A stretch of DNA of 22,378 nucleotides from a virus (IMGVR_UViG_2721755651_000013); one strand, 5' to 3'; positions 676 to 17,466 are shown, counted from the first letter of the stretch. Notes: generated from the sequence alone by a model not told the origin. Program-made: numbers and translations.

Positions 676-1632
676 GTGACTAGTTATTCAAACTTTTCCA
701 ATCAAATAAAAGAAACCATCAATAATAAATTCGATCATGAAATTCATGATTGGGACATTATAAAAAACTCAATCACAACTTTAATAAATAAAAATATCCA
801 TGGTGCAGGTAGAAATATCGTTGATTTTATAGATTTAGGTAACTGGGATTTTATTTCAAACTTTTCCTTTGATGACTCTACAAGAAGACTTGAATTAGAG
901 TGGCACCCCAATGATAAATTCCATATATATATTGAGTCCGTTGTGTTTGTCGAGTTTAATGACACTATATATGCTTTCTTAAAGGGATACTATCACAATC
1001 AGTTATCTCTAAATAGAATATATAATACAAAATGCTCTTCATGTTCATTTGAAAACTCAGGTTCTTATATGGTAGACGTTTATAGAACGGTTAAAAGAGT
1101 AAATGAGACAATCCAGACCCCAAATATAAATTGCTATACTACATGTATTTTAACAAGGCCCGCAAATGGTCATGTTACATCTACAGGCTTCTCACGAAAC
1201 CTCATGGATGCGATAAATATTTCATTAGCAGAGCACAAAATAGCCTCTTTACATAATGAAGTCATGAGTATTGAGGAATATGATCGTGATTCTTTACAAG
1301 AGAAAGGAAATACTGCCAGGAGATATTTAGAATATATTCTCATGCTTGTTAATATTCGTATAATGCATTTAAACAACGTTCAATACCAAGAGCAAATGCT
1401 AGGTAGTTTAGTTTCTGTTATTGAGGCTCTGGACTATGAACCATTAATGAAAAATGATGTTGAAATTACAAAGGACATCCTTAATGCTTGCAGCCACCAC
1501 GGGGGGGTTAGAATTGAAAAGAAAGATGTAATTTTTTCTTTGGAAGTTATTGAAAACTTAATTAAAGCCATAAAGAAAACCGACATAAATAAATTACAAC
1601 TCGATGGGATGTTTAAATCAATTCAAAAATAA
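676..1632 (+). CDS. Hypothetical protein, AT-rich orphan cargo gene at the alpha-distal end of the P4-like element
   Basis: 318-aa ORF with GTG start preceded by GAGG about 6 nt upstream; strongly AT-rich compared with the neighbouring P4 core genes; strong hairpin downstream; no motif I can recognise. Confidence 0.6.
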   Translation: MTSYSNFSNQIKETINNKFDHEIHDWDIIKNSITTLINKNIHGAGRNIVDFIDLGNWDFISNFSFDDSTRRLELEWHPNDKFHIYIESVVFVEFNDTIYAFLKGYYHNQLSLNRIYNTKCSSCSFENSGSYMVDVYRTVKRVNETIQTPNINCYTTCILTRPANGHVTSTGFSRNLMDAINISLAEHKIASLHNEVMSIEEYDRDSLQEKGNTARRYLEYILMLVNIRIMHLNNVQYQEQMLGSLVSVIEALDYEPLMKNDVEITKDILNACSHHGGVRIEKKDVIFSLEVIENLIKAIKKTDINKLQLDGMFKSIQK

Positions 1633-1764: not shown

Positions 1765-4098
1765 TTATTTCGCTGCAAACTCATCGCATTTTGGCAACCA
1801 GTCAGCATTGCTTTCCTCTCTTAGGGCCAGATTAGTCTGCATTCCTTGATTGGTCCGTCGTTTCTCATACTGCAGCCCATATTCCTTGAGCATTAACGGT
1901 AGCCCCTTGCCAAACATGGTCAGACTGAGCGTATTTTTATAGCCGTTAGCCTCCATGTAGACCAGATAGGCATGGTAGAGGTAAGTTCGAGGCTGACGTG
2001 GAACAATATTAGCGTTCCCCATAAACATGCCCGTGGTGTCAGGTAGGACCTCAAGGTAGCCGCAAAAATCAAAAGCTGAATCAGCATCACGTTTGATGGT
2101 GAGCGCTTCATCGGAGTTCTGCTGTGACTGAAGCAATGTCCTGGCACTCATTGGGTCGCTGAAACGCTGCATAAGCTGGCGAACAATCACCGCTAGCTCA
2201 CTGGCAATTTTCTCTTTGAGCTGGGTATCGCGTTCCTCCGGGGCTATCTGGTCGGGGAAATGCAGGATCACCCTTCGGCGTGAAACTCCACCACTACGAT
2301 CAGTGAAGCGCATCGGATTATTGTTCACAGCCAGGATGACCGCCGGGATGTGGGTTGAATAGGCGTTCTGATATTTGGGATCAACGGATACCGCATCGCC
2401 GCCAGTGATGGCTTTTAGTCCGGCCCCGTCACCGCTCCACTTTTCCTGGTCGGGAAGTCGAATCAGTGAAAAACCTATTAACGCAGCTCGTTCTCTTGGC
2501 GACTCAAGCATTTCAATGGTTGCCGAGGTCGCGTTATCTTCACCCGCCAGCATGGTTGCTATTTCAGCAAGAATACTCTTTCCACTTCCGCCAGGGCCAG
2601 TGACCTCCAGAAACAGCTGCCAGTCATAACGGTTAGCCAGCACCATAAACAATGCAGCCAGAATAATGTCCCGTTTTTCAGGATTAAAACCTGCGGCACG
2701 ATCCAGCCAGCGCCAGAATGCCGGGGCATGGGTTTCCAGTGACTCACCGTCAACGGGCTGCGTGTAATCCACCTCGCACAGCGTACGTAACCAGTGCTTC
2801 TTATCGTGCGGGCTGAACAATCCTGTCCGGGTATCGAGCACACCGTTGCGAAATCCGATAAGTTGCCGCGCCGGATTCTGCTGTTGCGGAACGATCAGTT
2901 TGAGGGTTTCCACGAGAGACGCAATTTTCGCGGATGAAAAAGGTGCGTCGAGGCGCTGAAACAGCGCAGCGACATCACGGGCAAAATCGGCGTAATAGAT
3001 AACTTTCCAGGCCCCCGCCTCATAGCGTGAAAGGAGCTGCCCGTTCGGGTCTACTGCCAGTGAATTTTTATAGTGATCCACTACCCTCTGCGCTTTTTCG
3101 CTGACGCTCAGCGCGGTAAATTCAGCTTCGCTCATTGTGTCGAAGGGGCTGGCAACAGCTGGTTTTATTACTTCATGAATTGCATGCCGGGTGGCTTCTT
3201 CGCCGTTTTGCGTGAATGCATCGTTCCAGTCACCAAACACAGGCGGGAGCGCCATTGTGCAATTGCAGGCCCCGGTAACAGCTGCGCCCCTTGTTTGCCC
3301 CGCACCGTTGAGATCGCGGTCAGCAGCAATAATTATCTGGTGCGTTGGGTACTCACTGCAGGCAATGCTCGCCAGGGAAAGGAAATTGACGGACGAAAAG
3401 GCCACCATGACAGCATCGCCAGTCAGATAGTTGATAGTAAGTGCGGTGGCATATCCTTCCGCTATCCAGAGCCGTTTGGCTGCTTTGGCAGTACCTTCAA
3501 CCAGGTAAAAGGCATTCTTAACCTGACCGCCTTTAAGGAAGCATTTGCCCCCATTAGCGTTGATTAACTGCAGATTTACCAGCTCTCCATCTGCATACAA
3601 TGGAACGACAAGATCTCCCGCGCGAAATGCCACACCACCGACTTTATGCATAGCGGTTAATTCCCGGCAAGGCAGTGCAGGAAACCCTTTACTCGTCAGA
3701 TAGGCATTGCCAGTGGTCTGGCGGGACTTATCAAACAAACGGGCAGCCAGCACTGCTGCAGCTTTTCTCCCGTCCTCTTTTTCAGGAGAACCAGATTCAA
3801 GCATTCCCTGAGATACTGGCAGCAGGTTTCCGATAATGCCGTTTATTCTGTCTGCCGCTTCACTAATGCCTACATCCAGTACTTTACTTACAAGCGCCAG
3901 GCCATCACCTGCCCCGCACTGGTTACAGAACCACGTTCCCCGCCCTTCCTGGTCATCAAATCGAAAGCGGTCTTTCCCGGCACAGACCGGGCAGGGCTGG
4001 TGCCGATTTTTCAGTACATTTACGCCCAGCGCAGGTAAAATTCTTGACCAGTGACCCCGAGCTGCTTTCTCAGCCTGGCTAACTTTCATTCCTGACAT
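1765..4098 (-). CDS. P4 alpha-type bifunctional primase/helicase (zinc-binding primase domain + TOPRIM + D5-type NTPase)
   Basis: Protein has CPVCAGKDRFRFDD...FCNQCG zinc motif, Walker A GPGGSGKS, and overall P4 alpha-like layout. Start moved to the ATG at 4096..4098 because AAGGAGG lies 8 nt upstream; this gives 777 aa. The ORF-track start at 4155 is probably an upstream extension. Confidence 0.9.
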   Translation of the reverse strand: MSGMKVSQAEKAARGHWSRILPALGVNVLKNRHQPCPVCAGKDRFRFDDQEGRGTWFCNQCGAGDGLALVSKVLDVGISEAADRINGIIGNLLPVSQGMLESGSPEKEDGRKAAAVLAARLFDKSRQTTGNAYLTSKGFPALPCRELTAMHKVGGVAFRAGDLVVPLYADGELVNLQLINANGGKCFLKGGQVKNAFYLVEGTAKAAKRLWIAEGYATALTINYLTGDAVMVAFSSVNFLSLASIACSEYPTHQIIIAADRDLNGAGQTRGAAVTGACNCTMALPPVFGDWNDAFTQNGEEATRHAIHEVIKPAVASPFDTMSEAEFTALSVSEKAQRVVDHYKNSLAVDPNGQLLSRYEAGAWKVIYYADFARDVAALFQRLDAPFSSAKIASLVETLKLIVPQQQNPARQLIGFRNGVLDTRTGLFSPHDKKHWLRTLCEVDYTQPVDGESLETHAPAFWRWLDRAAGFNPEKRDIILAALFMVLANRYDWQLFLEVTGPGGSGKSILAEIATMLAGEDNATSATIEMLESPRERAALIGFSLIRLPDQEKWSGDGAGLKAITGGDAVSVDPKYQNAYSTHIPAVILAVNNNPMRFTDRSGGVSRRRVILHFPDQIAPEERDTQLKEKIASELAVIVRQLMQRFSDPMSARTLLQSQQNSDEALTIKRDADSAFDFCGYLEVLPDTTGMFMGNANIVPRQPRTYLYHAYLVYMEANGYKNTLSLTMFGKGLPLMLKEYGLQYEKRRTNQGMQTNLALREESNADWLPKCDEFAAK

Positions 4099-4111
4099 TG
4101 TGCGGCCCTCC

Positions 4112-4435
4112 TTAGTGCAGCGCTGGTTTGTTGAGGTGACGGGAACAAAGTTCATCCATGACCGTCATTCCGAGCAGTGAGAGAACCGGACAGGCTTTAA
4201 GCGGCCCCGACTCCATCAGATCCGAAAGCAACGCGCAGGCAATTTCCAGCCCTCTTTGCTGCCCATGCTGGCGCAGATAGAACCCTTCCAGCTCGCGGGC
4301 TATGGCATCTTCAAGTTCAGCGAGCGTCAGGCCGGAATAACGTTCCTGATGATTGCTTAGAGCCAGCCAGGCACAGGCAACGGCACGGCGATACAGAGCG
4401 GCACGAAGTGCCAGAAGAGATTCACAGCATATCAT
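4112..4435 (-). CDS. Small hypothetical protein of the P4-like early (alpha) operon
   Basis: 107-aa ORF, GGAGGTG Shine-Dalgarno about 7 nt upstream, TGATG stop/start overlap with upstream ORF, same strand as and directly upstream of alpha. Function not assignable from sequence. Confidence 0.55.
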
Positions 4436-4656
4436 CAGGCCACCTCCGCATTCATCAGGTCGTCATGGCAGCGTTGCACCACTCCATCCAGTTGCTCTGT
4501 CATCAGATAAATGAGGGAAACCAGTTGTTCGCATTGGGCACCTGCTGGCTTTTCATAACAGTCCTGCAGGGCTGCCATGCCAGTTACATACTCACCCACA
4601 TTGCGTAAATGTTTCAGCCTTACAACATCGTCGTAGGAAATCTCAAACTGGTTCAT
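4435..4656 (-). CDS. Small hypothetical protein of the P4-like early operon
   Basis: 73-aa ORF with strong GGGGAGGTGA Shine-Dalgarno about 7 nt upstream of the ATG; coupled to the downstream ORF by a 1-nt overlap. Confidence 0.55.
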
Positions 4657-5206
4657 AGCGTCACCTCCCCGGCAGGCAGCCGTGCAGAAAGGGAGAGTAC
4701 ATAATCTCGGACTAGCAAACGGCGCGCGGAACGCTCATCGCAGGAGACAGTGCGAAGCATACAGATGCGGGGGTGAGTGTCAGCACGGCGGATTGCGGCA
4801 AACACAAAGACATATTGCGGGTGTGACGGGGTGAGGATTGTAGCCATGATGGCAGCCTCCAATAAGTAGCGGTTATTGCTACCACCGGAAACGCCAATTT
4901 CACTGGTGGCAGCCCGAACGGGGTTGGCGTAACCGGCCTTATTGGAAACCGGCCAGCCCGAAGGCTGCCCCGCCCGGACTACCATTATCTCGATAGAACC
5001 ATGGTGTAAGCATAAACACCACAGCCCTGAAAATGGTTGTGCCTGAGCTACGACGTAAAAAAAGACGCAAGGGGCGTCAATTGTCGCCAATAAGTTATAC
5101 GGAACGCCAATTCCGGCTGCCGATTTTGCGACAGCGGAAAAACTATACCTGGAAATGACGACAGTAAGCAAGCCAGAATAAAGGTATTTAATGTATGCAG
5201 GTATCA

Positions 5207-5467
5207 TCATGCATCACATCCCCGCCCACGGGCGCTGATGCGGTCCGCCATCCATGCGCTGACCTCAGACTGTGCCCAGGCGACATTTTTACCGCCAAGC
5301 GGGATCTGCTTCGGAAACGCATCGCGGCTGATCAGGTCGTAAACGGTCGAACGGGACAACCCGCATAAGTGCATCACCTCAGGCAGGCGTAAAAATCGCT
5401 CATGATGGTTCGATACAGGAAATAATGGCGCAGCAGGAGCTGGCGCAGACACAGAAATATTACGCAT
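5207..5467 (-). CDS. alpA: AlpA-family phage transcriptional regulator (MerR-like HTH)
   Basis: 86 aa; LRLPEV...GLSRSTVY...FP...W signature pattern of AlpA/prophage CP4-57-type regulators; sits divergent from the late operon, as in P4-like elements. Confidence 0.75.
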
Positions 5468-6235: not shown

Positions 6236-6312
6236 AAGGTAAGTCTGAAACAGCCTTAGTTAAACGAGGCCTTTTCTGGCTAGCCAAAAGAGGTCCGGGG
6301 CGGTTCAGTCTT

Positions 6313-6400: not shown

Positions 6401-7153
6401 ATGACAATCCCAGAACAGAACAATAACCCGATCGTTGAAATTTCTATCCCTGTTTCGACGCAACAGGCGCTTGAGAAAGTGAATGCCACCAAATCTGCAT
6501 GGCTTGAAGCACGTCGTCAGCAAAAAGCGGCAGCGGATAATATTGCGACAATCCGCCAGCGCCGCGCTGAAATGGAAGCCACGACGAACGCCCTGAATGA
6601 GGAGTGGCGCACGCTATTTCGTGAAAGTCAGGGCGTAGTCTCAAAGGAAATGAAAAAACTGCGCACGGAAATTGCGCTGGGACGAGAAACGCTTGAGGAT
6701 TTTGATGAGCTGCTGGCGGCTCAGGAAAGCGAAAATGCACTTTTGCCGCAGGAGGCTGCGGAATTAGCCGGAAAGTATATCCACGCGCACGACACCCTTG
6801 TGGGTATTCGCGCAAAACAAATCTGGGAAGATTTTATGCAGTCGCATGGAAAAGCACTAATCCAGACACTAAGCCTGCTCAAATCAACAATGGGCAGGGA
6901 AGCCAGCGCAGTTGTCGGTGTGGTGCATTCAGTTAATGACCCGGACACACTGCTGAAAGATTTTATTCATAAACATATCACCAGACCGGCTCTGACTAAC
7001 GATGCGATGCCCGAACAGGACCCCGTGTTTAAACTGGCGGGAGTTGCCCCGGATTATGCGGCCCGTCTGGATTTCAGTAATAAACTCTCTCCAGCAGCTA
7101 TGCATAAAATGAAGGTTCGTCAGGAACGTGCTGAGAAGGAGAAAGCAGTATGA
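6401..7153 (+). CDS. sid: Sid-like capsid size-determination (external scaffold) protein
   Basis: 250 aa (P4 Sid is about 244 aa); first gene after the late promoter; shares the AWL...DFMQ.HG.AL motif with the next ORF, consistent with Sid and Psu being related; AGGTG Shine-Dalgarno. Confidence 0.65.
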   Translation: MTIPEQNNNPIVEISIPVSTQQALEKVNATKSAWLEARRQQKAAADNIATIRQRRAEMEATTNALNEEWRTLFRESQGVVSKEMKKLRTEIALGRETLEDFDELLAAQESENALLPQEAAELAGKYIHAHDTLVGIRAKQIWEDFMQSHGKALIQTLSLLKSTMGREASAVVGVVHSVNDPDTLLKDFIHKHITRPALTNDAMPEQDPVFKLAGVAPDYAARLDFSNKLSPAAMHKMKVRQERAEKEKAV

Positions 7154-7701
7154 TGGCCCGAGTCACTCCAGACCAAGCGCTTATCAGTTTTAGAAATGCC
7201 CGTATTCTGTGGGCTGGACATAGTGAGAGCCGAAAAGCCGTTGAACAACAGATAGAATCACTCCTCACTGCCATGGAAAAACCAGCAGATTATGCTCGAC
7301 AGCTCGAATTACAGCGGGAACATCTGGATGTGCTGAAATGGCAAATTAACTGTGCTGCGCGCGAATGCATTTACTCGCAGCATCAACTGATGGAGGCCTG
7401 CACAGAAGACGCTCTCAGCAATTTTATGCAGGCGAATGGAGCAGCCCTGACATCTGCACTGGCTCCGTTCCTGAAGGGGCGCGGAGGGGTTGACGTTGCG
7501 TCCCGTATATTACGCAATGCTCTGGTTCGCCAGCTGGCAATAACACCGCCTGAAATTGCCGGGGATTATCGTATGATTCTGGATGAATCCGGTGTGATGC
7601 CTGACCCCATGATGGTTCGTGATTGCCAGAGCTCTTACACCCCTGCACAACAACTGCGCTTTCAGCAACGTCTGGATTACATTAACGGCATGCAGGAGTA
7701 A
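7150..7701 (+). CDS. psu: Psu-like polarity suppression / capsid decoration protein
   Basis: 183 aa (P4 Psu about 190 aa); FMQANGAALTSALAPFL and a C-terminal TPAQQ segment resemble what I recall of P4 Psu; ATGA start/stop overlap with sid. Confidence 0.7.
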   Translation: MMARVTPDQALISFRNARILWAGHSESRKAVEQQIESLLTAMEKPADYARQLELQREHLDVLKWQINCAARECIYSQHQLMEACTEDALSNFMQANGAALTSALAPFLKGRGGVDVASRILRNALVRQLAITPPEIAGDYRMILDESGVMPDPMMVRDCQSSYTPAQQLRFQQRLDYINGMQE

Positions 7702-7706
7702 TATTA

Positions 7707-7979
7707 ATGGCACTTAAATGTCCCGAATGCGGTACGACGGCACACGCCAGAACCTCCGCCTATGAAGCACCATCGGTTAAACGCTCATGGTATCAGTGCC
7801 AGAATCTTGAATGTTCCTACACATTTACCGCACTGGAAAGTGTGGATACGATAATCATGAAGCCCCGGCGCAATGAACAGGAATCAGAGAAAGCACAAAT
7901 GCCGGAAAAACAACAGCAAACTCTCAATCGCTATGGCTCCGCGTCAAAGCTGTCAAGCCGTCAGCAAATTCCTGTCTGA
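7707..7979 (+). CDS. delta: Delta/Ogr-family zinc-finger late transcriptional activator
   Basis: N-terminus CPECGTTAHARTS...YQCQNLECSYTF is the C2-C2 Ogr/Delta zinc-finger signature; GGAG Shine-Dalgarno 7 nt upstream. Confidence 0.85.
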   Translation: MALKCPECGTTAHARTSAYEAPSVKRSWYQCQNLECSYTFTALESVDTIIMKPRRNEQESEKAQMPEKQQQTLNRYGSASKLSSRQQIPV

Positions 7980-8000
7980 TTAGCAAAAAAAGCCCACGTA

Positions 8001-8026
8001 ATCCCGGTCCAGTACTGGGATTTTTT
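8001..8026 (+). terminator. Rho-independent terminator of the sid-psu-delta operon
   Basis: atccc...tccagtactgga palindrome...gggat followed by tttttt, about 20 nt after the delta stop. Confidence 0.55.
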
Positions 8027-8052
8027 ACGCCTTTTCCCTGGCTGGCCTGAGA

Positions 8053-8100
8053 GCGCATGAGTGCATGTCTATAGCGCATGAAAACGCATGATTCTCATGC
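8053..8100. repeat. Cluster of CGCATGA / TGCATG / TCATGC repeats (possible cos/terminase or regulator binding array)
   Basis: gcgcatga gtgcatg ... gcgcatga aaa cgcatga ttc tcatgc: five CATG-containing repeat units in 48 bp, in the position where P4 carries cos (between the late operon and int-side cargo). Confidence 0.3.
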
Positions 8101-8332
8101 ACCATTTTTGACGCGAAAGCCCTTGTGTGGTGGCTTCTGAGACGATTTGCGGAATGCATGAAAACCAGTCTGTTAAGCGAAGCGAGCAGGCGTGGGGGGC
8201 TGCGCGCGCTAAGGGGTTAGATTATAAAATATCAAACGCCGGTGAGATCCATTATTGTGGAACCACCCGAAGGAAGTGTAGAGGCGAAAGTACCCAAAAT
8301 AATTTTGCAAATTATTTAGAAATGAACTGAGC

Positions 8333-8358
8333 GCTCGAAACGAAATATAATTTCGAGC
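8333..8358 (-). terminator. Hairpin gctcgaaa-N10-tttcgagc just 3' of the minus-strand cargo operon
   Basis: Perfect 8-bp inverted repeat with 10-nt loop located about 30 nt after the stop of the last cargo ORF (8389); no strong U-tract. Confidence 0.4.
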
Positions 8359-8388
8359 ACCCCAATTAGCAGTTATATTTTTAATGTA

Positions 8389-8955
8389 TTAAACAGGATA
8401 AAAACCAGAGCTTCCATTCTTATTTAAGTTATGGATTTTATTTGCATCATTAATTTTTATTTGGAACGTCGGACCTTTATTCTCAAGAATTACAATCTGG
8501 AAATTATAGTCCCTTTTGATTAATGCGTGATAAAATGAATCACTGAGACTGACGCTATTAACATCCGATAGAGAACCCCCTCTATCTTTATCAAAGTGCG
8601 TCACTAATGGACTATCAAGCACAACAAATCCAATGAATGGATTCCCTTTTCTTGATAAAAATTCCGCAAAGCAAATGGTAAATATAGCATGCATTACTGC
8701 ACGGGTACCTTTACCAAACATTCCTCGGCGTTTCCCATTGATATTAAAGTCATATGTATCTTCGTCAAATCGCACTTTGTTATCTTTAGAATTTTCAAAA
8801 TTTATATCATTCAAAAAGTCTTGCATCGCTATTTCTATATCATACAAATCAGCTACTGTTAAGGAGTCAAAGTCCTCGGCGGAGTATTTAAGTTCGTCAA
8901 CATCATCTTCTTTATCTTGTAATGAAGATAGAATGCTATGTTTTGTGTGATCCAT
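8389..8955 (-). CDS. C-terminal ABC/SMC-type ATPase head segment (putative Walker B/D-loop region) of the cargo ATPase
   Basis: 188 aa; GMFGKGTRAVMHAIF (signature-like) followed by NPFIGFVVLDSPLVTHFD (hydrophobic strand + Asp, Walker-B-like); TAATG stop/start overlap with the upstream ORF; no Shine-Dalgarno; reading frame is open about 20 codons upstream of the ATG. Confidence 0.5.
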   Translation of the reverse strand: MDHTKHSILSSLQDKEDDVDELKYSAEDFDSLTVADLYDIEIAMQDFLNDINFENSKDNKVRFDEDTYDFNINGKRRGMFGKGTRAVMHAIFTICFAEFLSRKGNPFIGFVVLDSPLVTHFDKDRGGSLSDVNSVSLSDSFYHALIKRDYNFQIVILENKGPTFQIKINDANKIHNLNKNGSSGFYPV

Positions 8956-9545
8956 TAAAAGATTGTCTTTATATTCATAAAGTGATTCAAGAGATGAATG
9001 TATTGTTTTATATTTTTATCTTCTAACGTCTTAAAATCACTTTTTTCTGATTGATAAATTTCATTAACATCATTTTTTCTTAACATAATTAATTCATGTT
9101 CGCGAACATTAGATCCGATTGATTCAATTAATCCTTTCAGCTGGCTTTTGATTTTCAATTTTTCTGCATTACACGACAAAAAACAATCATCATATGATAT
9201 TTCATTTTCTTTTTTTTGCGGTGTATTACAGAACTCACAATAAATATCTGCAAAATTATTTAAATAGAAATTCGCCTGTGATACAACATCTATTCTTTGT
9301 AGATCTATAAAGTATTGGTCTTTAAGAAGACTAAATCTTTCAATGAGTAATGATAAGTATTTTTCCCTGTCACTGATTGAATATAATTCATCACTTAACT
9401 CTTTTAATAATTGCTTCTTATCATCAAGTGCATCAACAATACCTTTCAATATATCTTTCGATGATTCAATATCTTGCTCTACTTTCTCAAGTTCTCTTGA
9501 AACAATGACTTGATCATATTCAGGATAAATTAATTGCGCTTTCAA
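8955..9545 (-). CDS. Coiled-coil segment of the cargo SMC-like ATPase (no canonical start; same frame as the upstream ORF, separated by one TAA)
   Basis: 196 aa, highly charged (E/K/D/L-rich) helical heptad-like sequence; ORF-track start is TTG with no usable Shine-Dalgarno spacing; in frame with 9576..10208. Confidence 0.45.
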   Translation of the reverse strand: MKAQLIYPEYDQVIVSRELEKVEQDIESSKDILKGIVDALDDKKQLLKELSDELYSISDREKYLSLLIERFSLLKDQYFIDLQRIDVVSQANFYLNNFADIYCEFCNTPQKKENEISYDDCFLSCNAEKLKIKSQLKGLIESIGSNVREHELIMLRKNDVNEIYQSEKSDFKTLEDKNIKQYIHLLNHFMNIKTIF

Positions 9546-9575
9546 TTCCTCATAAATATTTGCAATTTGATTTTT

Positions 9576-10208
9576 TTAAAAATATCTTGCTTTTTTATTT
9601 GGTTTTTCTGCTAAGGAGTTAGTATCATCTCTCTGAGTTAAAAGGAATTTAAATTCAGACTTTCTTTTTGTCTCCTCGCTAGGAATATCAGAAAGAATTA
9701 ACGACTTCTCAGTTAACACTCTTAATTCATCAATACAAAAAAATTCAAAAACATTATTAAGATTAAATTTATGAAGAGTATTACTTAAGTTTGTTCTTAC
9801 TTTAGCCTCTTTGAAATTCAACCTACCATAAAAGTATGATGAAAAACTCTTTTTAGACGAAGCACTTTTGGAAAAAACCATCAACAGATTAGCTTCACTA
9901 ACATTTTCAATGCTCGAATCATATAATCTGTAATGGGCGCTATCCTGAAGAGACCTCTCAATTGTCATTACCCTACCTTGAAAATTAAATTCCAGATAGG
10001 CTAAATCATAACCTTGAGCATGATCGATATCTTTATTTTTTAGTTTTTCACTCCCTAATAAATATCGAATCAAATAATATATGTATGTTTTTCCAGAGTC
10101 AGAACCACCATATAAAATAGTCAATTTAGAACCAAATTCAATTATAGCATCTAATTTATTGAATCCGGTTACCTTTATTTTTCTGAACGTAAAAAAATTG
10201 TCATTCAT
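9576..10208 (-). CDS. N-terminal ABC/SMC-type ATPase head with Walker A (GGSDSGKT)
   Basis: MNDNFFTFRKIKVTGFNKLDAIIEFGSKLTILYGGSDSGKTYIYYL is the canonical N-terminal strand plus P-loop layout of RecF/SbcC/SMC-like ABC ATPases; start moved to the ATG at 10206..10208, which overlaps the upstream stop (ATGAATGA). Confidence 0.65.
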   Translation of the reverse strand: MNDNFFTFRKIKVTGFNKLDAIIEFGSKLTILYGGSDSGKTYIYYLIRYLLGSEKLKNKDIDHAQGYDLAYLEFNFQGRVMTIERSLQDSAHYRLYDSSIENVSEANLLMVFSKSASSKKSFSSYFYGRLNFKEAKVRTNLSNTLHKFNLNNVFEFFCIDELRVLTEKSLILSDIPSEETKRKSEFKFLLTQRDDTNSLAEKPNKKARYF

Positions 10209-10659
10209 AATTAAATTCCATATCATATTTGCCAATTTTATTTTTTATAATTGATTGCAACTGCTCATCAGGAATATCACTATATAACTTAACCACCAAA
10301 TTTATATTATGCTCCATCTGCGCAACATATTCATTATGTAGAGAATTTGTAAATGCATATGTTTTTTCAGAAGCTTTATATACAAAACCACGATGTGTAT
10401 AAATTTTTGAGGCTAGTTCATAGCCTTGCAACAAAGCCAATGATTCTAAAACAATCTCTCGTTTTAGGGCTAACTGAGCATCTCTACGGGGTATTGGAGG
10501 ATGAAGACTAATCTCTTCAGGTAAAAAATCCTTAAGATTTACTAAAATAAAATCAAAACAAATAAGCCGTTCAAGGCTTAATGAAGAAGGATAAATAGCG
10601 ACGAGCACTTTCGCCATTCGACATGCCACTTCTAAACTTGAATTATAAATTCTAACCAT
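10201..10659 (-). CDS. Small alpha-helical protein, putative middle component (LmuC-like) of a three-component ATPase system
   Basis: 152 aa when started at the ATG at 10657..10659 (TAATG overlap with upstream stop, GGTGAG upstream); located between the nuclease-like ORFs and the ATPase, as in ABC-3C/Lamassu type II loci. Assigned by position and size only. Confidence 0.5.
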   Translation of the reverse strand: MVRIYNSSLEVACRMAKVLVAIYPSSLSLERLICFDFILVNLKDFLPEEISLHPPIPRRDAQLALKREIVLESLALLQGYELASKIYTHRGFVYKASEKTYAFTNSLHNEYVAQMEHNINLVVKLYSDIPDEQLQSIIKNKIGKYDMEFNYE

Positions 10660-11276
10660 TATCTCACCGTCCAAATTACTTCACCATCATTAACCAAATG
10701 ATGGCATATTCCTTTTTTATCATTTGCTTCACATATTTTTGATAGTACTGAATGTGCAATTGGTGTCAGAACAGCCTGCTTCAAGACTGCATTACACCTA
10801 ATAAATGCATAATTATGGTCTTCATAAAAGACGGGTTCAATTGAAGATGAAATGTAACATTTCAATGCTTTGAATACATCATCTTTAAATACTTCGCGGA
10901 CAAAAACCTCAAGCGAAGATGCAAAATAAAAATCATTTCTACTATTATTAAAGTGTCGTCTGTATGGATCATCAAGCTCTAAGAAAGAACTATAAGTTTT
11001 ATTTCCATGCTCTGAATAGGCTTGAAGCAGTGCATTAACATATACAGACTCTTTTTTTGAATTGTATGTTGGAATTTCATTTGGAGGGATTCTCACGACA
11101 TACAGCTCGTTAAAGTACTTAAAATAAAGGTGTGTATTTGCAATATCATTTAAAATCAATGATAAGGGTAGAGAGTAAAAAATACTAAAATCAAAATCCT
11201 CAATATATTTTTTTATTTCATCATCTAATGGAATATCAATCTTTTTAGTTATTTTTTTGAAATTGCTGAATCCCAT
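10659..11276 (-). CDS. Hypothetical protein; probably the C-terminal part of the effector, reachable by a -1 shift from 11249..11665
   Basis: 205 aa; only one Met (the start) and no Shine-Dalgarno; overlaps the upstream ORF by 28 nt in the -1 frame across an A7 tract. Confidence 0.5.
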   Translation of the reverse strand: MGFSNFKKITKKIDIPLDDEIKKYIEDFDFSIFYSLPLSLILNDIANTHLYFKYFNELYVVRIPPNEIPTYNSKKESVYVNALLQAYSEHGNKTYSSFLELDDPYRRHFNNSRNDFYFASSLEVFVREVFKDDVFKALKCYISSSIEPVFYEDHNYAFIRCNAVLKQAVLTPIAHSVLSKICEANDKKGICHHLVNDGEVIWTVR

Positions 11277-11665
11277 GAATCAAGGACTGCTTTTTTAAGC
11301 TCGTTTTTATTTTTCAATAAATTAGAAAATGTAGTAGATAAATCATAGGGTGCCACAAAAAAGTACTTCTGAGGGATGGGATAATCACCATTCAGAGTAA
11401 AATAGATAAGTTTTCCAAACTCAACTACAACATCAGAGAACCCTAAACTTTTTTTGTACAGTTTGCATTGATAATTATCCCAAGAATAACCTTCTACGTT
11501 AGGATCCGATTTATATCCAACAACGTCTCTACCTTTATCTCCAGCTCCTCCCAAACGTTCGCTCCACGGGTAATCATCTGATTTACAGACAATAAGCCAA
11601 TCATGGACAAATACCTCCCATTGTTCATCATCCCATGTCAATATTTCCGAAAGTGGTTGAGACAC
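11249..11665 (-). CDS. Mrr-like PD-(D/E)xK nuclease domain protein (putative effector N-terminal domain)
   Basis: 138 aa; WEVFVHDWL...GGAGDKGRDVVGY...YQCKLY matches the E ... G-D-x-G-x-D ... Q-x-K pattern of Mrr-type restriction-endonuclease catalytic domains; GTG start with AAGGAG 7 nt upstream, embedded in the 3' end of int. Confidence 0.6.
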   Translation of the reverse strand: MSQPLSEILTWDDEQWEVFVHDWLIVCKSDDYPWSERLGGAGDKGRDVVGYKSDPNVEGYSWDNYQCKLYKKSLGFSDVVVEFGKLIYFTLNGDYPIPQKYFFVAPYDLSTTFSNLLKNKNELKKAVLDSWDSAISKK

Positions 11666-11668
11666 AAA

Positions 11669-12850
11669 TTAACTCCTTTTTAGTCTTTCAAATATCAAAT
11701 TACTGTACCAGTCCATCATAGACTTCCTTCCACTAAAATATTGAGCATGGTTATAAGTCCCCCTAATAGAATTTTTATCTACATGAGCCAACTGGATTTC
11801 AATCCAAGCACTCTCAAAACCTTGCTCATGCAGGATTGTAGAAAGGGTATGACGAAAACCATGTCCAGTGACTTTTCCTCCATACCCAATACGCTTAATG
11901 GCTTGATTTATACTCGCTTCGCTCATTGGCCTATTCGGATCGTTCCGCCCTGGAAAAACATAACGATAGTTCCCTGTCATGATCTTGAGTTCATTGAGTA
12001 AATCTACCGCTTGAGATGATAAGGGCACAAGATGTGGCCTACGCATTTTCATCCTTTCAGCAGGAATTTCCCAAATAGCGTTATCCAGATCAAATTCTTG
12101 CCATAATGCCGCGCGTAATTCGATGGTTCTCACACCCGTAATCATCAGTAATTTCGTGGCTATCTGGACAAGCTTACTCCCGGAGTAACCCTCTAAGGCA
12201 CGTAGAAAATCAGGTATCTCATCAGCTTTTAGGAATGGGAAATGATTGGATTGGTGTACTTCGAGAGCGCTGGAGAGATCAGCCGCAGGATTGTACTCCG
12301 CCCTACCCGTTGCAATTGCGTAGCGAAACACTTCGGAGCAACGCTGCCGCACTTTGCGCATTTTCTCCAACGCACCACGTTTCTCAATTTTACGCAGAAC
12401 GTTCAGCAGCTCTAGCGGTTTAATCTCTCCCACAGGCCTTGTTCCGACATAAGGAAAAATGTCGTTCTTAAACGCTTCCATGATGTCTGATGCATATCCC
12501 GCCGACCATTTAGCAGATTTAAGTTGATGCCACTCTCTGGCTATCTTTTCGAAGGCGTTCTCTGACTCTGTTTGCATAGCTAGCTTTTGCTCTTTTCGAA
12601 CCTCACTAGGGTTCTTTCCTTCTGCCACAAGTTTTCGAGCTTCATCACGACGGGAACGAGCATCGGCAAGGGTGATCGTTGGGTAAACACCAAGCGAGAT
12701 CATTTTGGGTTTGCCGGCATAGCGATAGCGGAACCGCCAACTCTTGCTTCCATTAGGTTCTATAAGTAATGACAACCCTAGCCCATCTCCAAATGTATAG
12801 GCTTTAGCTTCAGGCTTAGCGCGGCGAATCTGCATATCGTTTAAAGGCAT
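11669..12850 (-). CDS. int: P4-type tyrosine integrase
   Basis: N-terminus MPLNDMQIRRAKPEAKAY...DGLGLSLLIEPNGSKSWRFRYR is the P4-integrase N-terminal signature; C-terminal HGFRHT...Y catalytic motifs; start moved to the ATG at 12848..12850 (393 aa); adjacent to a tRNA-derived att. Confidence 0.9.
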   Translation of the reverse strand: MPLNDMQIRRAKPEAKAYTFGDGLGLSLLIEPNGSKSWRFRYRYAGKPKMISLGVYPTITLADARSRRDEARKLVAEGKNPSEVRKEQKLAMQTESENAFEKIAREWHQLKSAKWSAGYASDIMEAFKNDIFPYVGTRPVGEIKPLELLNVLRKIEKRGALEKMRKVRQRCSEVFRYAIATGRAEYNPAADLSSALEVHQSNHFPFLKADEIPDFLRALEGYSGSKLVQIATKLLMITGVRTIELRAALWQEFDLDNAIWEIPAERMKMRRPHLVPLSSQAVDLLNELKIMTGNYRYVFPGRNDPNRPMSEASINQAIKRIGYGGKVTGHGFRHTLSTILHEQGFESAWIEIQLAHVDKNSIRGTYNHAQYFSGRKSMMDWYSNLIFERLKRS

Positions 12851-12897: not shown

Positions 12898-13012
12898 ACA
12901 TTCAGTACCGGATTCTACTGGATGGTTACGGACTACTATGGACTTAAAAGAATAAAAAATGTTATAAATCAGAGATTTTATGGACTAATACGGACGTTTG
13001 AGGAAGTTGAGA

Positions 13013-13058
13013 TGGTGCCGATAATAGGAGTCGAACCTACGACCTTCGCATTACGAAT
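13013..13058 (-). other. 3' 46 nt of a tRNA-Thr(CGU)-like gene (anticodon loop to CCA): att core of the P4-like element; the tRNA 5' half is absent
   Basis: Reverse complement reads ATTCGTAATGCGAAGGTCGTAGGTTCGACTCCTATTATCGGCACCA: T-arm GTAGG-TTCGACT-CCTAT, acceptor 3' strand, CCA; upstream sequence cannot pair as acceptor, D or anticodon-stem 5' strands. Confidence 0.6.
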
Positions 13059-13405
13059 TATAAGAATCCGCTTCTAATTCAAAGCATTACCCCATCAACA
13101 CTGCGCTCACACGTCCCACCACATCAAAACATGTAAAGCCTTGCAAGCCATTGCGAGGCCTTATGTGTCTCAGTTTTGTCCCACCTTGTATTACGACTTG
13201 CATAGCCAATGAAGATAAACGTGACGACAAACGGCGCAGCAGTCTTCTTTTCTTTCACGACTTCTCCAGCATGCATACCTTTCTGCCATGACTGAAGTGA
13301 ATGCCTGTTATGAGCAAGGATTGGCCCAGATGAATCGCCCTGGACTGTTGCGATCGTGAAGCCATAGACTGGGCCGCAAGCACGGGAGGTTACGATAAAG
13401 CGACA

Positions 13406-13771
13406 GTGCAGGATGTCATGTTAGGAGCGATAGAAAAACGCTTTGGCGATAAAGTACCGGAACAGTCCATCCAGTGGCTGACAGATAACGGTTCAGCGTA
13501 TAGAGCGCATGAAACACGGCAGTTCGCCAGAGAGTTGAATCTGGAGCCCTGCACAACGGCAATCAGCAGTCCTCAGAGTAATGGAATTGCAGAAAGGTTC
13601 GTGAAAACGATGAAGGAAGACTACATCGCGTTCATGCCGAAACCGAATGTAAGAACGGCATTGCATAATCTTGCAGTGGCGATCGAACATTACAATGAAA
13701 ACCATCCGCACAGTGCGTTGGGTTATCGCTCTCCGCGAGAATATCGACGTCAGCGGGTAACGTTAACTTAA
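13406..13771 (+). pseudogene. IS3-family (IS2-like) transposase OrfB C-terminal fragment
   Basis: 121-aa ORF ends ...[23 protein letters not shown]...[19 protein letters not shown], the typical C-terminus of IS3-family integrase-core transposases; the N-terminal part and OrfA are absent, so this is a remnant. Confidence 0.65.
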
Positions 13772-13812
13772 GATACCCCCCCTGTCTGGAAATAAGGGGG
13801 CAAGAACAATGA

Positions 13813-14556
13813 TCAGATTCCCTGGTGAGTAAGAATTTTACTTTCTGAACTCCTCTGAGAGTATTGACTTGGAGAAACACCAAAATAACGTCTAAATACA
13901 TAAGTAAAGTATGAGACACTGGCATAACCACAGACCTTAGCTACTTTACTAATAGGATAACAACGAGTGCTGAGTAAATATTCAGCCATTTGCATCCTCT
14001 CATCAAGTATGATCTTACTGAATGATACCCCCTCTTCTTTCAATTTCCTCTTTAGTAAACTTTCGCTGAGATATAATCTTGATGATATATCCTTAAGACG
14101 CCATGGTGCAGATAAATCCGTATGAATAATCGTTTTAACTTTAGCCCCTGTGCTTTTCAAACATCCAAACAGAAATACTCCAAATTGTTTTTCAGAAGAA
14201 AATGCAGAGAGACATGTAAAAGCAATAGACTCATCAAAAATTTCTATGTATTCAGCACAGTGATTAGCCCAACTAATTAATCCTTTAATTAAACTGAAGT
14301 CAGCAAAGTTTATTTTTAAATAAGATGGATATTCCCTACAATCAGAAATATCCCTTAAGTTATTAGCTTTCAAATAGCGACTAATAAACTCAGCGCCAAA
14401 ATCCGCCACTATCACTCTTTCAGGATATGTCAGGAAAAAATCTCTAGAGCTAGAGTCGACAAGTACAGATGAACCTCTCTCCAGAAACACACTCTCTTTT
14501 CCGAAATAAACATCAAAGGACTCCAAAATCAATATAACTGAACATGTAGTTGCCAT
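13813..14556 (-). CDS. AraC/XylS-family transcriptional regulator (Rns/AggR/GadX-like size and layout)
   Basis: 247 aa, AT-rich; C-terminal ISKVAKVCGYASVSYFTYVFRRYFGVSPSQY is the second helix-turn-helix of the AraC family. Confidence 0.8.
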   Translation of the reverse strand: MATTCSVILILESFDVYFGKESVFLERGSSVLVDSSSRDFFLTYPERVIVADFGAEFISRYLKANNLRDISDCREYPSYLKINFADFSLIKGLISWANHCAEYIEIFDESIAFTCLSAFSSEKQFGVFLFGCLKSTGAKVKTIIHTDLSAPWRLKDISSRLYLSESLLKRKLKEEGVSFSKIILDERMQMAEYLLSTRCYPISKVAKVCGYASVSYFTYVFRRYFGVSPSQYSQRSSESKILTHQGI

Positions 14557-15200: not shown

Positions 15201-15432
15201 ACCCGATCATCAAACGAAACATAAAATTAGCTCACATTATGAGGAAAGGTATCTTTTTGCGCTATGTAAATTCAAAGGGTTAGCCTCATTTTCCCGATGG
15301 CTTTCTCAACACTACTAGTTGTGAGCCCTTGCAATGTTCATTAATATACGTCTCACAAATAATTCACAGATATTGCAAAATGGATATTACTGAACCGCCC
15401 CGGGTTTCCTGGAGAGTGTTTTATCTGTGAAC

Positions 15433-16319
15433 TCAGGCTGCCAGATCATCGTTTCCGATGGAAGCATAATAAGCTTTTTCTGCTTCTGCCGGAGGAGTAT
15501 GGCCCAGCCTTCCCAGCAATCGTCGATTGTTATACCAGTCCACCCACGTTAGTGTGGCCAGTTCCACTTCTGCACGGTTTTTCCAGCTCTTACGGTGTAT
15601 TACCTCCGCTTTGTAAAGACCATTGATGCTCTCAGCCATCGCGTTGTCATACGAGTCGCCTGTACTCCCTGTTGATGCCAGTAATCCGGCTTCTTTTAGT
15701 CGCTCCGTATAGGCCAGTGACACATACTGAGAGCCTTTATCGCTGTGATGGATGGTGCCAGACGGACGACGGGCCCACAACGCCTGCTCCAGCGCATCCA
15801 GCACGAATGTCGTTTCCATAGACGATGAGACCCGCCACCCCACGATGTATCCGGCAAACACATCAATGATAAACGCCACATAGACGAAGCCCTGCCATGT
15901 GCTGACGTAAGTAAAATCAGCCACCCACAGCTGGTCAGGTCGTTCTGCCACGAACTGACGGTTTACGCGGTCGCCTGCGGCAACGGCTTTCCGGCTGATG
16001 GTCGTACGGACCTTTTTACCCCGGAGAACACCGGCAAGTCCCATAACCGCCATGAGACGTGCCACTGTACATCTGGCCACCCTGATTCCTTCCCGTAACA
16101 ACTGACGCCAGACTTTACGCACACCGTACACCTGATGATTTTCATCGTATACGCGCTGTATCTCTCTCTTCAGCCAGTCGTCGTGCTGCGCACGGGCACT
16201 GCGTTTATCCGGATGATGTCGCTGTTGCTGACAATGGTAATACGTTGACGGGGCAATATGCAGTTCGCTGCATACCGGTCCGACCCCGTACTGCTCACGC
16301 AGCTTATCCAGCAGTGGCA

Positions 16320-16323
<4 letters not shown>
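15433..16323 (-). CDS. IS3-family transposase OrfB (DDE integrase core)
   Basis: 296 aa with the characteristic IS3 OrfB layout; overlaps orfA in the -1 frame across an A6 tract (TGGAAAAAATGATG), the usual frameshift window. Confidence 0.9.

Positions 16324-17466
<1,143 letters not shown>

What the first reader, a model, noticed from the sequence alone, without database searches (positions are those of the whole stretch)
8389..11665. Candidate three-component SMC/ABC-ATPase antiphage system (Lamassu/ABC-3C-like) in the P4 delta-int cargo hotspot
Between the conserved P4 late gene delta and int lies a 3.3-kb, visibly AT-rich block of six tightly packed minus-strand ORFs, compositionally foreign to the P4 core. 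Read in transcription order: (i) a 138-aa ORF with an Mrr-type PD-(D/E)xK signature (E ... GDKGRD ... QCK); (ii) a 205-aa ORF with no start context of its own; (iii) a 152-aa helical protein; (iv) an ATPase N-terminal head with Walker A GGSDSGKT; (v) a charged coiled-coil segment; (vi) a C-terminal head with a Walker-B-like VVLDSP strand. Collapsed, this gives about 335 aa effector, about 150 aa middle protein and about 610 aa SMC-like ATPase, which is the size and gene order of Lamassu (LmuA-LmuC-LmuB / DdmABC) type II systems. P4-like satellites are known to carry antiphage systems at exactly this position. The Mrr-like effector/ATPase pairing and the apparent splitting are what make it worth a look; I cannot tell from sequence whether it is a described subtype.
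Basis: partly seen in the sequence, partly recalled or inferred. Interest (0 to 1): 0.85.

Follow-up and report, generated by a model that had tools for sequence, protein, structure and literature searches.

The report
Decayed Lamassu-Mrr defence operon, O157:H7 satellite
The six small genes are the broken remains of an ordinary three-gene Lamassu anti-phage system (Mrr-type nuclease, small middle protein, SMC-like ATPase) carried by the P4-like satellite prophage Sp2 of E. coli O157:H7; the system is of a known type, the locus is already published, and it is almost certainly inactive.

Summary
Six packed minus-strand ORFs (8389-11665, 27-34% GC) lie between the delta and int genes of a P4-like satellite. 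The window is 100% identical to E. coli O157:H7 Sakai prophage Sp2.

A+B are LmuA (Mrr-like PD-(D/E)xK nuclease plus ABC-3C CTD6), C is LmuC (MC2), and D+E+F are a short LmuB with Walker A, a CxxC hook and Walker B.

The splitting is gene decay:
- Intact relatives in Proteus and Pantoea (89% and 79% nt identity; Pantoea in the same int-delta slot) encode 335, 152 and 606 aa.
- The window differs by two 1-nt deletions in A-runs (lmuA 11252-11258; lmuB 9013-17) and one TTA>TAA nonsense (9577).
- Both deletions are in all 309 E. coli records that match the probes.
- The nonsense is missing from 10 early-branching records (those inspected are O55:H7 or strain 493/89). The two O55:H7 strains compared base by base carry a further deletion.
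- All 8 substitutions since that split change the protein, against a family dN/dS of about 0.1.

Short Lamassu with an Mrr effector is a described, validated subtype. The O55:H7 allele was published in 2024 as 'Lamassu-var', with a weak phenotype. Sakai RefSeq already marks lmuB as a pseudogene.

The parts
10659..11665 (-). lmuA pseudogene. The N-terminal Mrr-like PD-(D/E)xK nuclease domain is ORF A (11249-11665, GTG start 4 nt after the int stop). The C-terminal ABC-3C CTD6 domain is ORF B (10659-11276), in the -1 frame.
   Evidence: PADLOC LmuA PDLC03852: A covers profile 10-140 (9e-41) and B covers 141-333 (3.9e-44). Pfam CTD6 7.7e-30. Intact relatives are 335 aa. The family alignment has invariant G42 D43 G45 D47, Q66 C67 K68, E82 and K85, and 7 of 47 members hit Mrr_cat. 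An AF2 model of intact homologue P0029 finds solved LmuA chains as its top PDB matches.
11252..11258 (-). Lesion 1: a 1-nt deletion that leaves an A7 run followed at once by TAA (11249-11251). It frameshifts lmuA at codon ~137, at the boundary between the nuclease domain and the CTD.
   Evidence: DNA alignment with intact Proteus and Pantoea loci: tcaaa-aaaata against tccaataaaata and tcaaagaaaata. A repaired-allele probe matches all 309 E. coli records at 98.9% and none at 100%.
10201..10659 (-). lmuC (ABC-3C middle component 2), 152 aa, apparently intact.
   Evidence: PADLOC LmuC PDLC03871 2.5e-36. Pfam MC2 PF20288 6e-30. Same length as the intact relatives.
8389..10208 (-). lmuB pseudogene (short SMC/Rad50-like ABC ATPase, 606 aa when repaired), now three ORFs: D (N-terminal head, Walker A GGSDSGKT), E (coiled coil with CEFC zinc hook) and F (C-terminal head, GKGTR and Walker B FVVLDSP).
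   Evidence: PADLOC LmuB PDLC03863: D covers profile 3-199 (8e-50), E covers 231-412 (1.6e-21) and F covers 428-608 (5e-37). Intact 606-aa homologues P0001 (86% identity) and P0002 (73%). Invariant columns in alignment A3. Sakai RefSeq annotates ECs_0293 as a pseudogene.
9576..9578 (-). Lesion 2: in-frame TAA, from TTA (Leu) in relatives. The changed base is 9577.
   Evidence: Alignment with intact loci. The TTA allele is present in 10 of the 309 E. coli records matched by that probe; those inspected are O55:H7 strains and O157 strain 493/89. TAA is in the other 299.
9013..9017 (-). Lesion 3: a 1-nt deletion in an A-run (A6 to A5) that frameshifts lmuB. The last ~20 codons of ORF E are out of frame, and the true frame continues into ORF F.
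   Evidence: Alignment with intact loci. A repaired probe matches all 309 records at 98.9% and none at 100%.
8329..8362 (-). Terminator-like hairpin (13-bp stem) just downstream of the lmuB stop; probable end of the int-lmuACB transcription unit.
   Evidence: Consensus scan. Pattern match only.
11669..12850 (-). Satellite integrase, immediately upstream on the same strand. The lmuA GTG lies 4 nt after its stop, the same spacing as in the Pantoea-type loci.
   Evidence: L006: int 3147-4328, lmuA 4332-5339.
6401..7979 (+). Sid-like, Psu and Ogr/Delta genes of the P4-like satellite; they flank the hotspot on the other side.
   Evidence: Pfam Psu 4.8e-42 and Ogr_Delta 1e-16. Sakai annotation 'prophage Sp2, P4-like phage'.

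Best explanation
This is a pseudogenised short (type II, ABC-3C) Lamassu system with an Mrr-type nuclease effector. It sits as cargo in the int-delta hotspot of the P4-like satellite prophage Sp2 of the E. coli O55:H7/O157:H7 lineage.

Ancestral mechanism (inferred from solved and tested Lamassu systems, not shown here): an LmuB dimer together with LmuC holds one LmuA monomer inactive through its C-terminal domain. When the complex senses DNA ends or phage replication intermediates, LmuA is released and oligomerises. Its nuclease then degrades DNA and aborts the infection.

Present state (shown here): lmuA is cut at the nuclease/CTD boundary by a 1-nt deletion. lmuB is cut by a nonsense codon after about 210 residues and again by a 1-nt deletion. 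No full-length ATPase and no effector tethered to its CTD can be made, and the locus is drifting neutrally. The likely transcription unit is int-lmuA-lmuC-lmuB, ending at the hairpin at 8329-8362 (inferred).
For: - Identity: PADLOC LmuA, LmuC and LmuB hits tile single profiles across the ORF fragments. Pfam gives CTD6, MC2 and AAA_23.
- Intact relatives: 335, 152 and 606 aa, in the same gene order. The Pantoea-type loci sit in the same int-delta position of a P4-like element.
- Lesions: exactly three, and three edits restore all reading frames.
- Not sequencing error: both deletions are in all 309 E. coli records that match the probes.
- Stepwise decay: the TAA is absent from 10 records, including O55:H7 strains and O157 strain 493/89. 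O55:H7 strains RM12579 and TB182A have an extra private 1-nt deletion at ~9041-9046.
- Relaxed selection: 8 of 8 substitutions between O157:H7 and O55:H7 inside the block are non-synonymous, whereas family-wide dN/dS is 0.06-0.12.
- Motifs: Walker A, the CxxC hook, GKGxR and Walker B hhhhDS are invariant in LmuB, and Walker B matches the short-Lamassu definition. LmuA has the D...QxK motif, and 7 of 47 relatives hit Mrr_cat.
- Fold: the top PDB matches are solved LmuA chains.
- Requirement for all parts: ATPase, effector and lmuC are each needed for defence in tested Lamassu systems.
- Mechanism of sequestration and activation.
Against: - A published construct of the O55:H7 allele (both frameshifts, no TAA) reduced plaque size of T-even phages (PMC11754643), which could mean residual activity. 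The effect was seen only at the highest dilutions. By my mapping, the cloned interval ends exactly at the lmuA GTG, so it carries no native upstream sequence.
- The lmuA lesion leaves A_AAA_AAA in the zero frame directly before a stop. That is formally a -1 slippery heptamer, so trace amounts of full-length LmuA cannot be excluded.
- lmuC and every invariant residue of the fragments are still intact, so inactivation is recent and function was not tested here.
Confidence: 0.93

Rival explanations
1. It is a functional split or recoded Lamassu. LmuA would be made full-length by programmed -1 ribosomal frameshifting or transcriptional slippage on the A7 run, and the LmuB pieces would reassemble non-covalently or be read through, giving a working 'variant' system.
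For: A_AAA_AAA lies in the zero frame immediately before TAA, and the downstream ORF is in the -1 frame. The break falls at a domain boundary of the AF2 model. The O55:H7 allele was reported to give a weak plaque-size phenotype.
Against: Intact relatives are single ORFs with non-slippery sequence at that site. No stimulatory RNA structure lies downstream (z = +0.54). The lmuB frameshift site has no canonical slippery heptamer, and the -1 frame has a TAA right at the A-run. The O157:H7 allele also has a TAA stop inside lmuB. Further lineage-specific lesions and 8 of 8 non-synonymous changes indicate no constraint. The split state is confined to one clonal lineage.
Confidence: 0.04
2. The fragments have residual or new function without a complete Lamassu. 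Examples: the stand-alone 138-aa Mrr-like nuclease domain, the intact LmuC, or the 210-aa LmuB head acting on their own or interfering with other SMC-type systems.
For: ORF A keeps all catalytic-motif residues, and lmuC is intact. The satellite has retained the 3.3-kb block through the whole O55:H7 to O157:H7 radiation without deleting it.
Against: Non-synonymous changes hit ORF A, lmuC and the lmuB pieces alike. Known LmuA activation depends on release from the LmuBC complex followed by oligomerisation. Retention is expected for a young clone without any selection.
Confidence: 0.025
3. The breaks are sequencing or assembly errors at homopolymers, and the real genes are intact.
For: Two of the three lesions lie in A-runs, a classic error site.
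Against: The same two deletions are present in all 309 matching records, produced by many laboratories and platforms. The third lesion is a substitution that follows the phylogeny. Sakai RefSeq annotates the pseudogene.
Confidence: 0.005

Closest known systems
Short (type II) Lamassu with Mrr effector ('Lamassu-Mrr', DefenseFinder subtype; ABC-3C system with CTD6 and MC2). An E. coli Lamassu-Mrr system was tested in Millman et al. 2022 (the strain named in that paper's figure legend is O150:H5 SE15).
   Same: Gene order lmuA-lmuC-lmuB. LmuB of about 600 aa with Walker A, Walker B hhhhDS and a CxxC hook. LmuC is the MC2 family. LmuA has an N-terminal Mrr-like D...QxK nuclease and a C-terminal CTD.
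   Different: Here lmuA and lmuB are interrupted by three lesions, so the defining full-length components are not encoded. The window's own N-terminal domain does not reach Pfam Mrr_cat at E <= 0.1; only 7 of 47 relatives do. Sequence relatedness to the tested E. coli system was not measured.
'Lamassu-var' of Johnson et al., Nucleic Acids Res 2024 (PMC11754643), cloned from E. coli O55:H7 TB182A, CP038295:4116517-4120474.
   Same: It is the same locus. The cloned interval corresponds to window 7707-11665 and differs at 9 substitutions and one extra 1-nt deletion. It carries the same lmuA and lmuB frameshifts. That paper's cluster of 259 hotspots with '3 to 9 CDSs' fits the O157:H7/O55:H7 clone.
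   Different: The passages of the paper that I read present it as an abundant, active Lamassu variant and do not mention pseudogenisation. The evidence here shows it is a frameshifted relic of a canonical Lamassu-Mrr, and its abundance reflects clonal over-sampling. The window allele additionally has the TAA in lmuB.
Vibrio cholerae DdmABC / Lamassu Vc-Cap4 (cryo-EM structures 9nxx, 9ny1, 9ny5, 9uxh, 9uxl) and Salmonella LmuACB (9hqx).
   Same: Same three-component architecture. The AF2 model of an intact LmuA homologue retrieves these LmuA chains as its best PDB matches, at probability 0.94-1.0 for all but the apo chain 9ny5_A (0.90). The presumed mechanism is the same: sequestration, sensing of DNA ends, then oligomerisation.
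   Different: The effector domain is Cap4-type there and Mrr-type here. Sequence identity is only 7-11% and TM-scores are 0.25-0.33, and no sequence-level PDB hit was found. Vc LmuB lacks the zinc hook, whereas this family has an invariant CxxC.
Intact orthologous operons in Proteus mirabilis (L003/L004) and in Pantoea alhagi (L005, CP019706) with two near-identical loci from sequencing runs (L006, L007).
   Same: 89% and 79% nucleotide identity over the whole operon. Same gene order and overlaps. The Pantoea-type copies lie between int and delta/psu of a P4-like satellite.
   Different: These are uninterrupted (335, 152 and 606 aa) and evolve under dN/dS of about 0.07-0.12.

Membership tests
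Lamassu (short / type II; ABC-3C) | LmuB: SMC/Rad50-like ABC ATPase with Walker A Gx4GK[ST] | tested here: met
   GGSDSGKT in ORF D. G40, S42, G45 and K46 are invariant in alignment A3. PADLOC LmuB 8.4e-50 and Pfam AAA_23 2.2e-7.
Lamassu (short / type II; ABC-3C) | Short-type Walker B hhhhD[Q/S/T/E] and total LmuB length of about 600 aa (Haudiquet 2025) | tested here: met
   FVVLDS in ORF F, with D538, S539 and P540 invariant. Repaired length is 606 aa, the same as intact homologues.
Lamassu (short / type II; ABC-3C) | Coiled coil between the two head halves, with an optional CxxC zinc hook | tested here: met
   ORF E matches LmuB profile positions 231-412. C330 and C333 (CEFC) are invariant across 18 homologues. 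The coiled-coil fold itself was not modelled.
Lamassu (short / type II; ABC-3C) | LmuC middle component | tested here: met
   Pfam MC2 PF20288 6e-30 and PADLOC LmuC 2.5e-36. 152 aa and intact.
Lamassu (short / type II; ABC-3C) | LmuA: N-terminal effector domain fused to a Lamassu/ABC-3C C-terminal domain | tested here: met
   This holds for the ancestral (repaired) gene. CTD6 PF20282 2.1e-29 in the repaired protein. PADLOC LmuA tiles A+B. The fold search returns solved LmuA chains first. In the window the two domains are in different frames.
Lamassu (short / type II; ABC-3C) | All components encoded full-length (each is required for defence in tested systems) | tested here: not met
   lmuA is frameshifted at 11252-11258. 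lmuB has a TAA at 9576-9578 and a frameshift at 9013-9017. The requirement is from Millman 2022.
Lamassu (short / type II; ABC-3C) | Confers phage defence / abortive infection | not testable with these tools
   The only published data are for the O55:H7 allele: plaque-size reduction of T-even phages at the highest dilutions.
Mrr-type PD-(D/E)xK effector (Lamassu-Mrr subtype) | Mrr_cat-like catalytic motif D...(Q/E)xK on a restriction-endonuclease-like fold | tested here: met
   GAGDKGRD (D43, D47) and Q66-C67-K68 are invariant in 47 sequences. The model shows an alpha/beta core. PD-(D/E)xK nucleases (Cap4, MspJI, FokI, EndoMS) follow the LmuA chains in the fold search.
Mrr-type PD-(D/E)xK effector (Lamassu-Mrr subtype) | Significant match to Pfam Mrr_cat (PF04471) | tested here: inconclusive
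   The window's ORF A and the repaired LmuA give no Mrr_cat hit. 7 of 47 full-length family members do (best 1.6e-6), and three carry a precomputed PF04471 annotation.
P4-like satellite defence hotspot (int to psu/delta) | Variable cargo flanked by a tyrosine integrase and Psu/Delta, in an element with a P4 alpha-type primase and the C4/CI immunity RNA | tested here: met
   int at 11669-12850. Psu 4.8e-42 and Ogr_Delta 1e-16. Primase and 'P4-like phage Sp2' in the Sakai annotation. Rfam C4 RNA at 4902-4989, 84 bits. Psu is only about 31% identical to P4 Psu according to PMC11754643.
Programmed -1 frameshift gene (dnaX / IS3-type) | Slippery heptamer X_XXY_YYZ in the zero frame | tested here: met
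   tc A_AAA_AAA taa at 11252-11258, with the downstream ORF in the -1 frame.
Programmed -1 frameshift gene (dnaX / IS3-type) | Stimulatory downstream structure, and conservation of the two-frame arrangement in relatives | tested here: not met
   The downstream 73 nt folds no better than shuffled sequence (z = +0.54). Relatives are single-frame with tccaataaaata and tcaaagaaaata.

The most novel reading that the evidence does not exclude
The frameshifted locus may not be entirely dead. Low-level -1 slippage on the A7 run could restore some full-length LmuA, or the domain-precise fragments (free Mrr nuclease domain, free CTD6, intact LmuC, partial LmuB) could reassemble into a weak, atypical defence. 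That would explain the reported small-plaque phenotype of the O55:H7 allele against T-even phages. It would be a naturally split Lamassu, and a case where homopolymer slippage acts as an on/off switch for a toxic abortive-infection system.
Probability: 0.05. Interest if true: 0.55.

Novelty: already known. Interest (0 to 1): 0.18.

Why it matters
- **Annotation.** The most frequent 'Lamassu-related' hotspot cargo counted in E. coli genome collections (259 instances in PMC11754643; 309 complete genomes carry the locus here) is one clonal, frameshifted relic of a canonical Lamassu-Mrr. It is not an abundant new variant, and defence-system censuses should not count it as a functional system in O157:H7.
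- **Timeline.** The locus gives a clean, dated example of stepwise decay of a defence operon inside a P4-like satellite: two frameshifts arose before the O55:H7/O157:H7 split, and further lineage-specific lesions followed. This contrasts with a recent claim that defence pseudogenes are rare (<1%) in P4 satellites (bioRxiv 10.64898/2026.02.27.708500).
- **Reagent.** No structure of that subtype was found by sequence search of the PDB.
- **Limit.** No new biology is implied.

Tried and rejected
- **Sequence searches of the PDB.** Repaired LmuA, repaired LmuB and an LmuA family profile gave nothing meaningful. Only the fold search found LmuA structures.
- **NCBIfam.** No useful hits for any of the six ORFs.
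- **First probe for the nonsense allele.** The 76-nt probe returned nothing, probably because of low-complexity masking. An offset 98-nt probe worked.
- **Structure prediction of the repaired LmuA.** I modelled the intact homologue P0029 instead.
- **Recurrent breakage of LmuA in relatives.** L003 and L005 were called at 145 and 201 aa. This was rejected: their DNA is intact, and the short calls are gene-caller artefacts of the GTG start.
- **Earlier test by Rousset et al. 2022.** I asked whether the system they synthesised from O157:H7 FRIK944 was this locus. It was a cytidine deaminase from another P4 element.
- **SNP density.** The density inside the block against flanking satellite DNA (8 in 3.3 kb against 4 in 4.6 kb) is not significant (Fisher p = 0.087), so I did not rely on it.
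- **Promoter scan.** It gave no more matches than shuffled sequence and is uninformative.

Full report
**1. Where the window comes from.** Window 8300-11700 is 100.0% identical to E. coli O157:H7 genomes, including Sakai (NC_002695.2, 311957-315357) and EDL933. In Sakai the region lies inside 'prophage Sp2, P4-like phage'. The flanks are a tyrosine integrase (window 11669-12850, minus strand) on one side. On the other side are sid-like, psu and ogr/delta genes (6401-7979, plus strand; Pfam Psu 4.8e-42 and Ogr_Delta 1e-16). The element also carries a P4 alpha-type primase and a C4/CI immunity RNA (Rfam RF01695, 84 bits, 4902-4989).

**2. The observation.** All six minus-strand ORFs exist exactly as described. 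GC falls to 27-34% between 8500 and 11500, against about 50% in the satellite core.

**3. What the ORFs are.**
- PADLOC profiles tile across the fragments. ORF A covers positions 10-140 and ORF B positions 141-333 of a single LmuA model (9e-41 and 3.9e-44). ORF C is LmuC (2.5e-36). ORFs D, E and F cover positions 3-199, 231-412 and 428-608 of a single LmuB model (8.4e-50, 1.6e-21 and 5.1e-37).
- Pfam agrees. B is ABC-3C CTD6 (7.7e-30), C is ABC-3C middle component 2 (6e-30), D is AAA_23, and F is a weak DUF3732 match.

**4. Intact relatives and the exact lesions.**
- A search with the conceptually fused LmuB found 606-aa proteins at 86% identity (Proteus mirabilis) and 73% identity (Pantoea alhagi).
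- Their contigs carry uninterrupted operons of 335, 152 and 606 aa. In the Pantoea-type loci the operon lies between int and delta/psu of a P4-like satellite.
- Two shorter LmuA calls in those records (145 and 201 aa) are gene-caller artefacts of the GTG start. The DNA is open throughout.
- DNA alignment (89% and 79% identity) shows that the window differs inside coding sequence by exactly three disabling changes:
  - (i) a 1-nt deletion in lmuA that leaves A7 followed by TAA (11252-11258, stop at 11249-11251);
  - (ii) TTA to TAA in lmuB (9576-9578, base 9577);
  - (iii) a 1-nt deletion in an A-run of lmuB (9013-9017).
- Making these three edits restores 335, 152 and 606 aa.

**5. The lesions are real and were acquired stepwise.**
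- Probes carrying the repaired alleles were searched against 5,426 complete E. coli genomes.
- Both deletions are present in all 309 records that match the probes. Every match is 98.9% to the repaired probe and none is 100%.
- The nonsense codon is absent (TTA) from 10 records. The six listed are four O55:H7 strains (RM12579, USDA5905, DEC5A, DEC5B), O157 strain 493/89 and one strain without a listed serotype. O55:H7 TB182A, examined separately, also has TTA.
- I recognise 493/89 as the sorbitol-fermenting O157:H- reference strain, and O55:H7 as the early branch of this clone. Both points come from my own knowledge and not from a tool.
- O55:H7 strains RM12579 and TB182A carry an additional private 1-nt deletion at about 9041-9046.
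- The order of events is therefore: two frameshifts before the O55:H7/O157:H7 split, then independent further lesions on each branch.
- All 8 substitutions that separate the O157:H7 and O55:H7 alleles inside the block change the protein: 7 missense and the TAA, with none synonymous.
- Between the window (repaired), Proteus and Pantoea lineages, dN/dS is 0.06-0.12 for all three genes. This is the signature of a recently released constraint.
- Sakai RefSeq already annotates D+E+F as a pseudogene, 'AAA family ATPase' ECs_0293.

**6. Subtype.**
- LmuB has an invariant Walker A (G40, S42, G45, K46), an invariant CxxC (C330, C333), GKGxR (505-509) and a Walker B FVVLDSP.
- This fits the published definition of short Lamassu: about 600 aa, Walker B hhhhD[Q/S/T/E], and zero to two zinc hooks (PMC12663957).
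- The LmuA family (47 sequences) has invariant G42, D43, G45, D47, then Q66, C67, K68, then E82 and K85. All 47 hit CTD6, and 7 hit Pfam Mrr_cat (best 1.6e-6).
- An AlphaFold2 model of the intact homologue P0029 (67% identical, mean pLDDT 94.5) retrieves solved LmuA chains as its best PDB matches: 9nxx, 9ny1, 9hqx and 9uxh, at probability 0.97-1.0. Cap4, MspJI, FokI and EndoMS nucleases follow.
- TM-scores are low (0.25-0.33), consistent with a different effector domain and a different domain orientation.
- Mrr is a listed LmuA effector class in both short and long Lamassu. An E. coli Lamassu-Mrr system was shown to defend by abortive infection, with ATPase, effector and lmuC each required (Millman et al. 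2022 preprint).

**7. Mechanism.**
- The ancestral mechanism is inferred by homology. An LmuB dimer plus LmuC sequesters monomeric LmuA through its CTD. Sensing of DNA ends or phage replication origins releases LmuA, which oligomerises into an active nuclease.
- In the window, lmuB terminates after about 210 residues and lmuA is severed between the nuclease and the CTD. Neither the sensor nor a tethered effector can be made.
- I infer that the operon is co-transcribed with int, for two reasons. The lmuA GTG lies 4 nt after the int stop, with the same spacing in the Pantoea-type loci. A strong hairpin also follows lmuB at 8329-8362.

**8. Rivals.**
- Programmed recoding was considered because the lmuA lesion leaves A_AAA_AAA in frame before a stop, with the continuation in the -1 frame.
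- Several results argue against it:
  - relatives are single-frame and non-slippery at that site;
  - there is no downstream structure (z = +0.54);
  - the lmuB frameshift site is not slippery;
  - a TAA interrupts lmuB;
  - the lineage keeps accumulating lesions.
- Sequencing error is excluded by the 309 matching records.

**9. Prior literature on this exact locus.**
- Johnson et al. (NAR 2024, PMC11754643) found, as the largest cluster of Psu-to-integrase hotspots in E. coli, 259 loci of '3 to 9 CDSs' related to type II Lamassu. They named it Lamassu-var.
- They cloned CP038295:4116517-4120474 and reported reduced plaque size for T2, T4, T6 and RB69, visible only at the highest dilutions.
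- CP038295 is O55:H7 strain TB182A. The cloned interval equals window 7707-11665.
- The clone carries both frameshifts and the extra O55 deletion, and it ends exactly at the lmuA GTG.
- I take that phenotype as weak evidence for residual activity at best.
- Rousset et al. 2022 did not list this locus. The O157:H7 FRIK944 system they synthesised was a cytidine deaminase from another P4 element.
- A 2026 preprint states that defence pseudogenes are rare (<1%) in P4 satellites. This locus is an exception, fixed in a major pathogen clone.

**10. Verdict.** The object is a known Lamassu subtype, in a known hotspot, already published and partly annotated as a pseudogene, and it is decaying. Interest is low. 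The residual value is in curation and in the dated decay series.

Noticed in passing
window 676-1632 (+): A 318-aa ORF (Sakai ECs_0304, 'hypothetical protein') lies in a 29-39% GC patch at the primase-distal end of the satellite. It has no Pfam or PADLOC hit. It may be a second, uncharacterised cargo gene of the P4-like element.
   Followed up: partly
window 4902-4989 (-) and 5058-5135 (-): Rfam C4 antisense RNA (84 bits) and isrK Hfq-binding sRNA (72 bits) lie next to each other in the satellite's immunity region. This is consistent with P4-type RNA immunity.
   Followed up: no
window 15394-16700 and ~19700-20950: Two IS3-family copies in inverted orientation, each with an ALIL frameshift pseudoknot (16249-16365 minus strand, 20009-20125 plus strand). 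Relative to Sakai, the window has a ~1.3-kb insertion at 15394-16700 and loses collinearity after 18159. The source strain is therefore not Sakai itself.
   Followed up: partly
window 6293-6307: A 15-nt segment (GTCCGGGGCGGTTCA) is present in the window but absent from O55:H7 RM12579 and TB182A and from O157 strain 493/89. It lies just upstream of the sid-like gene.
   Followed up: no
window 11665-11671, and L006 4328-4332: The lmuA GTG start lies 4 nt after the integrase stop codon. The spacing is the same in the Pantoea-type P4-like loci. This implies the defence operon is transcribed and translated as an extension of int. The published 'Lamassu-var' clone begins exactly at this GTG, so it lacks any native upstream signal.
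   Followed up: partly
window 6401-7153 (+): The sid-like ('capsid size determining' / 'septation initiation') protein gives a weak Pfam Psu hit (7e-10) over its C-terminal half. The adjacent gene is the true Psu (4.8e-42). The Pantoea-type loci show the same paired Psu-family arrangement.
   Followed up: no
window 12922-13100: No tRNA gene is detected anywhere in the window. In O157 strain 493/89 the same integrase abuts tRNA-Thr and proA. In the window, as in Sakai, the satellite instead abuts the lambda-like remnant Sp1, with an IS3 fragment and an AraC-type regulator at 13406-14556.
   Followed up: no
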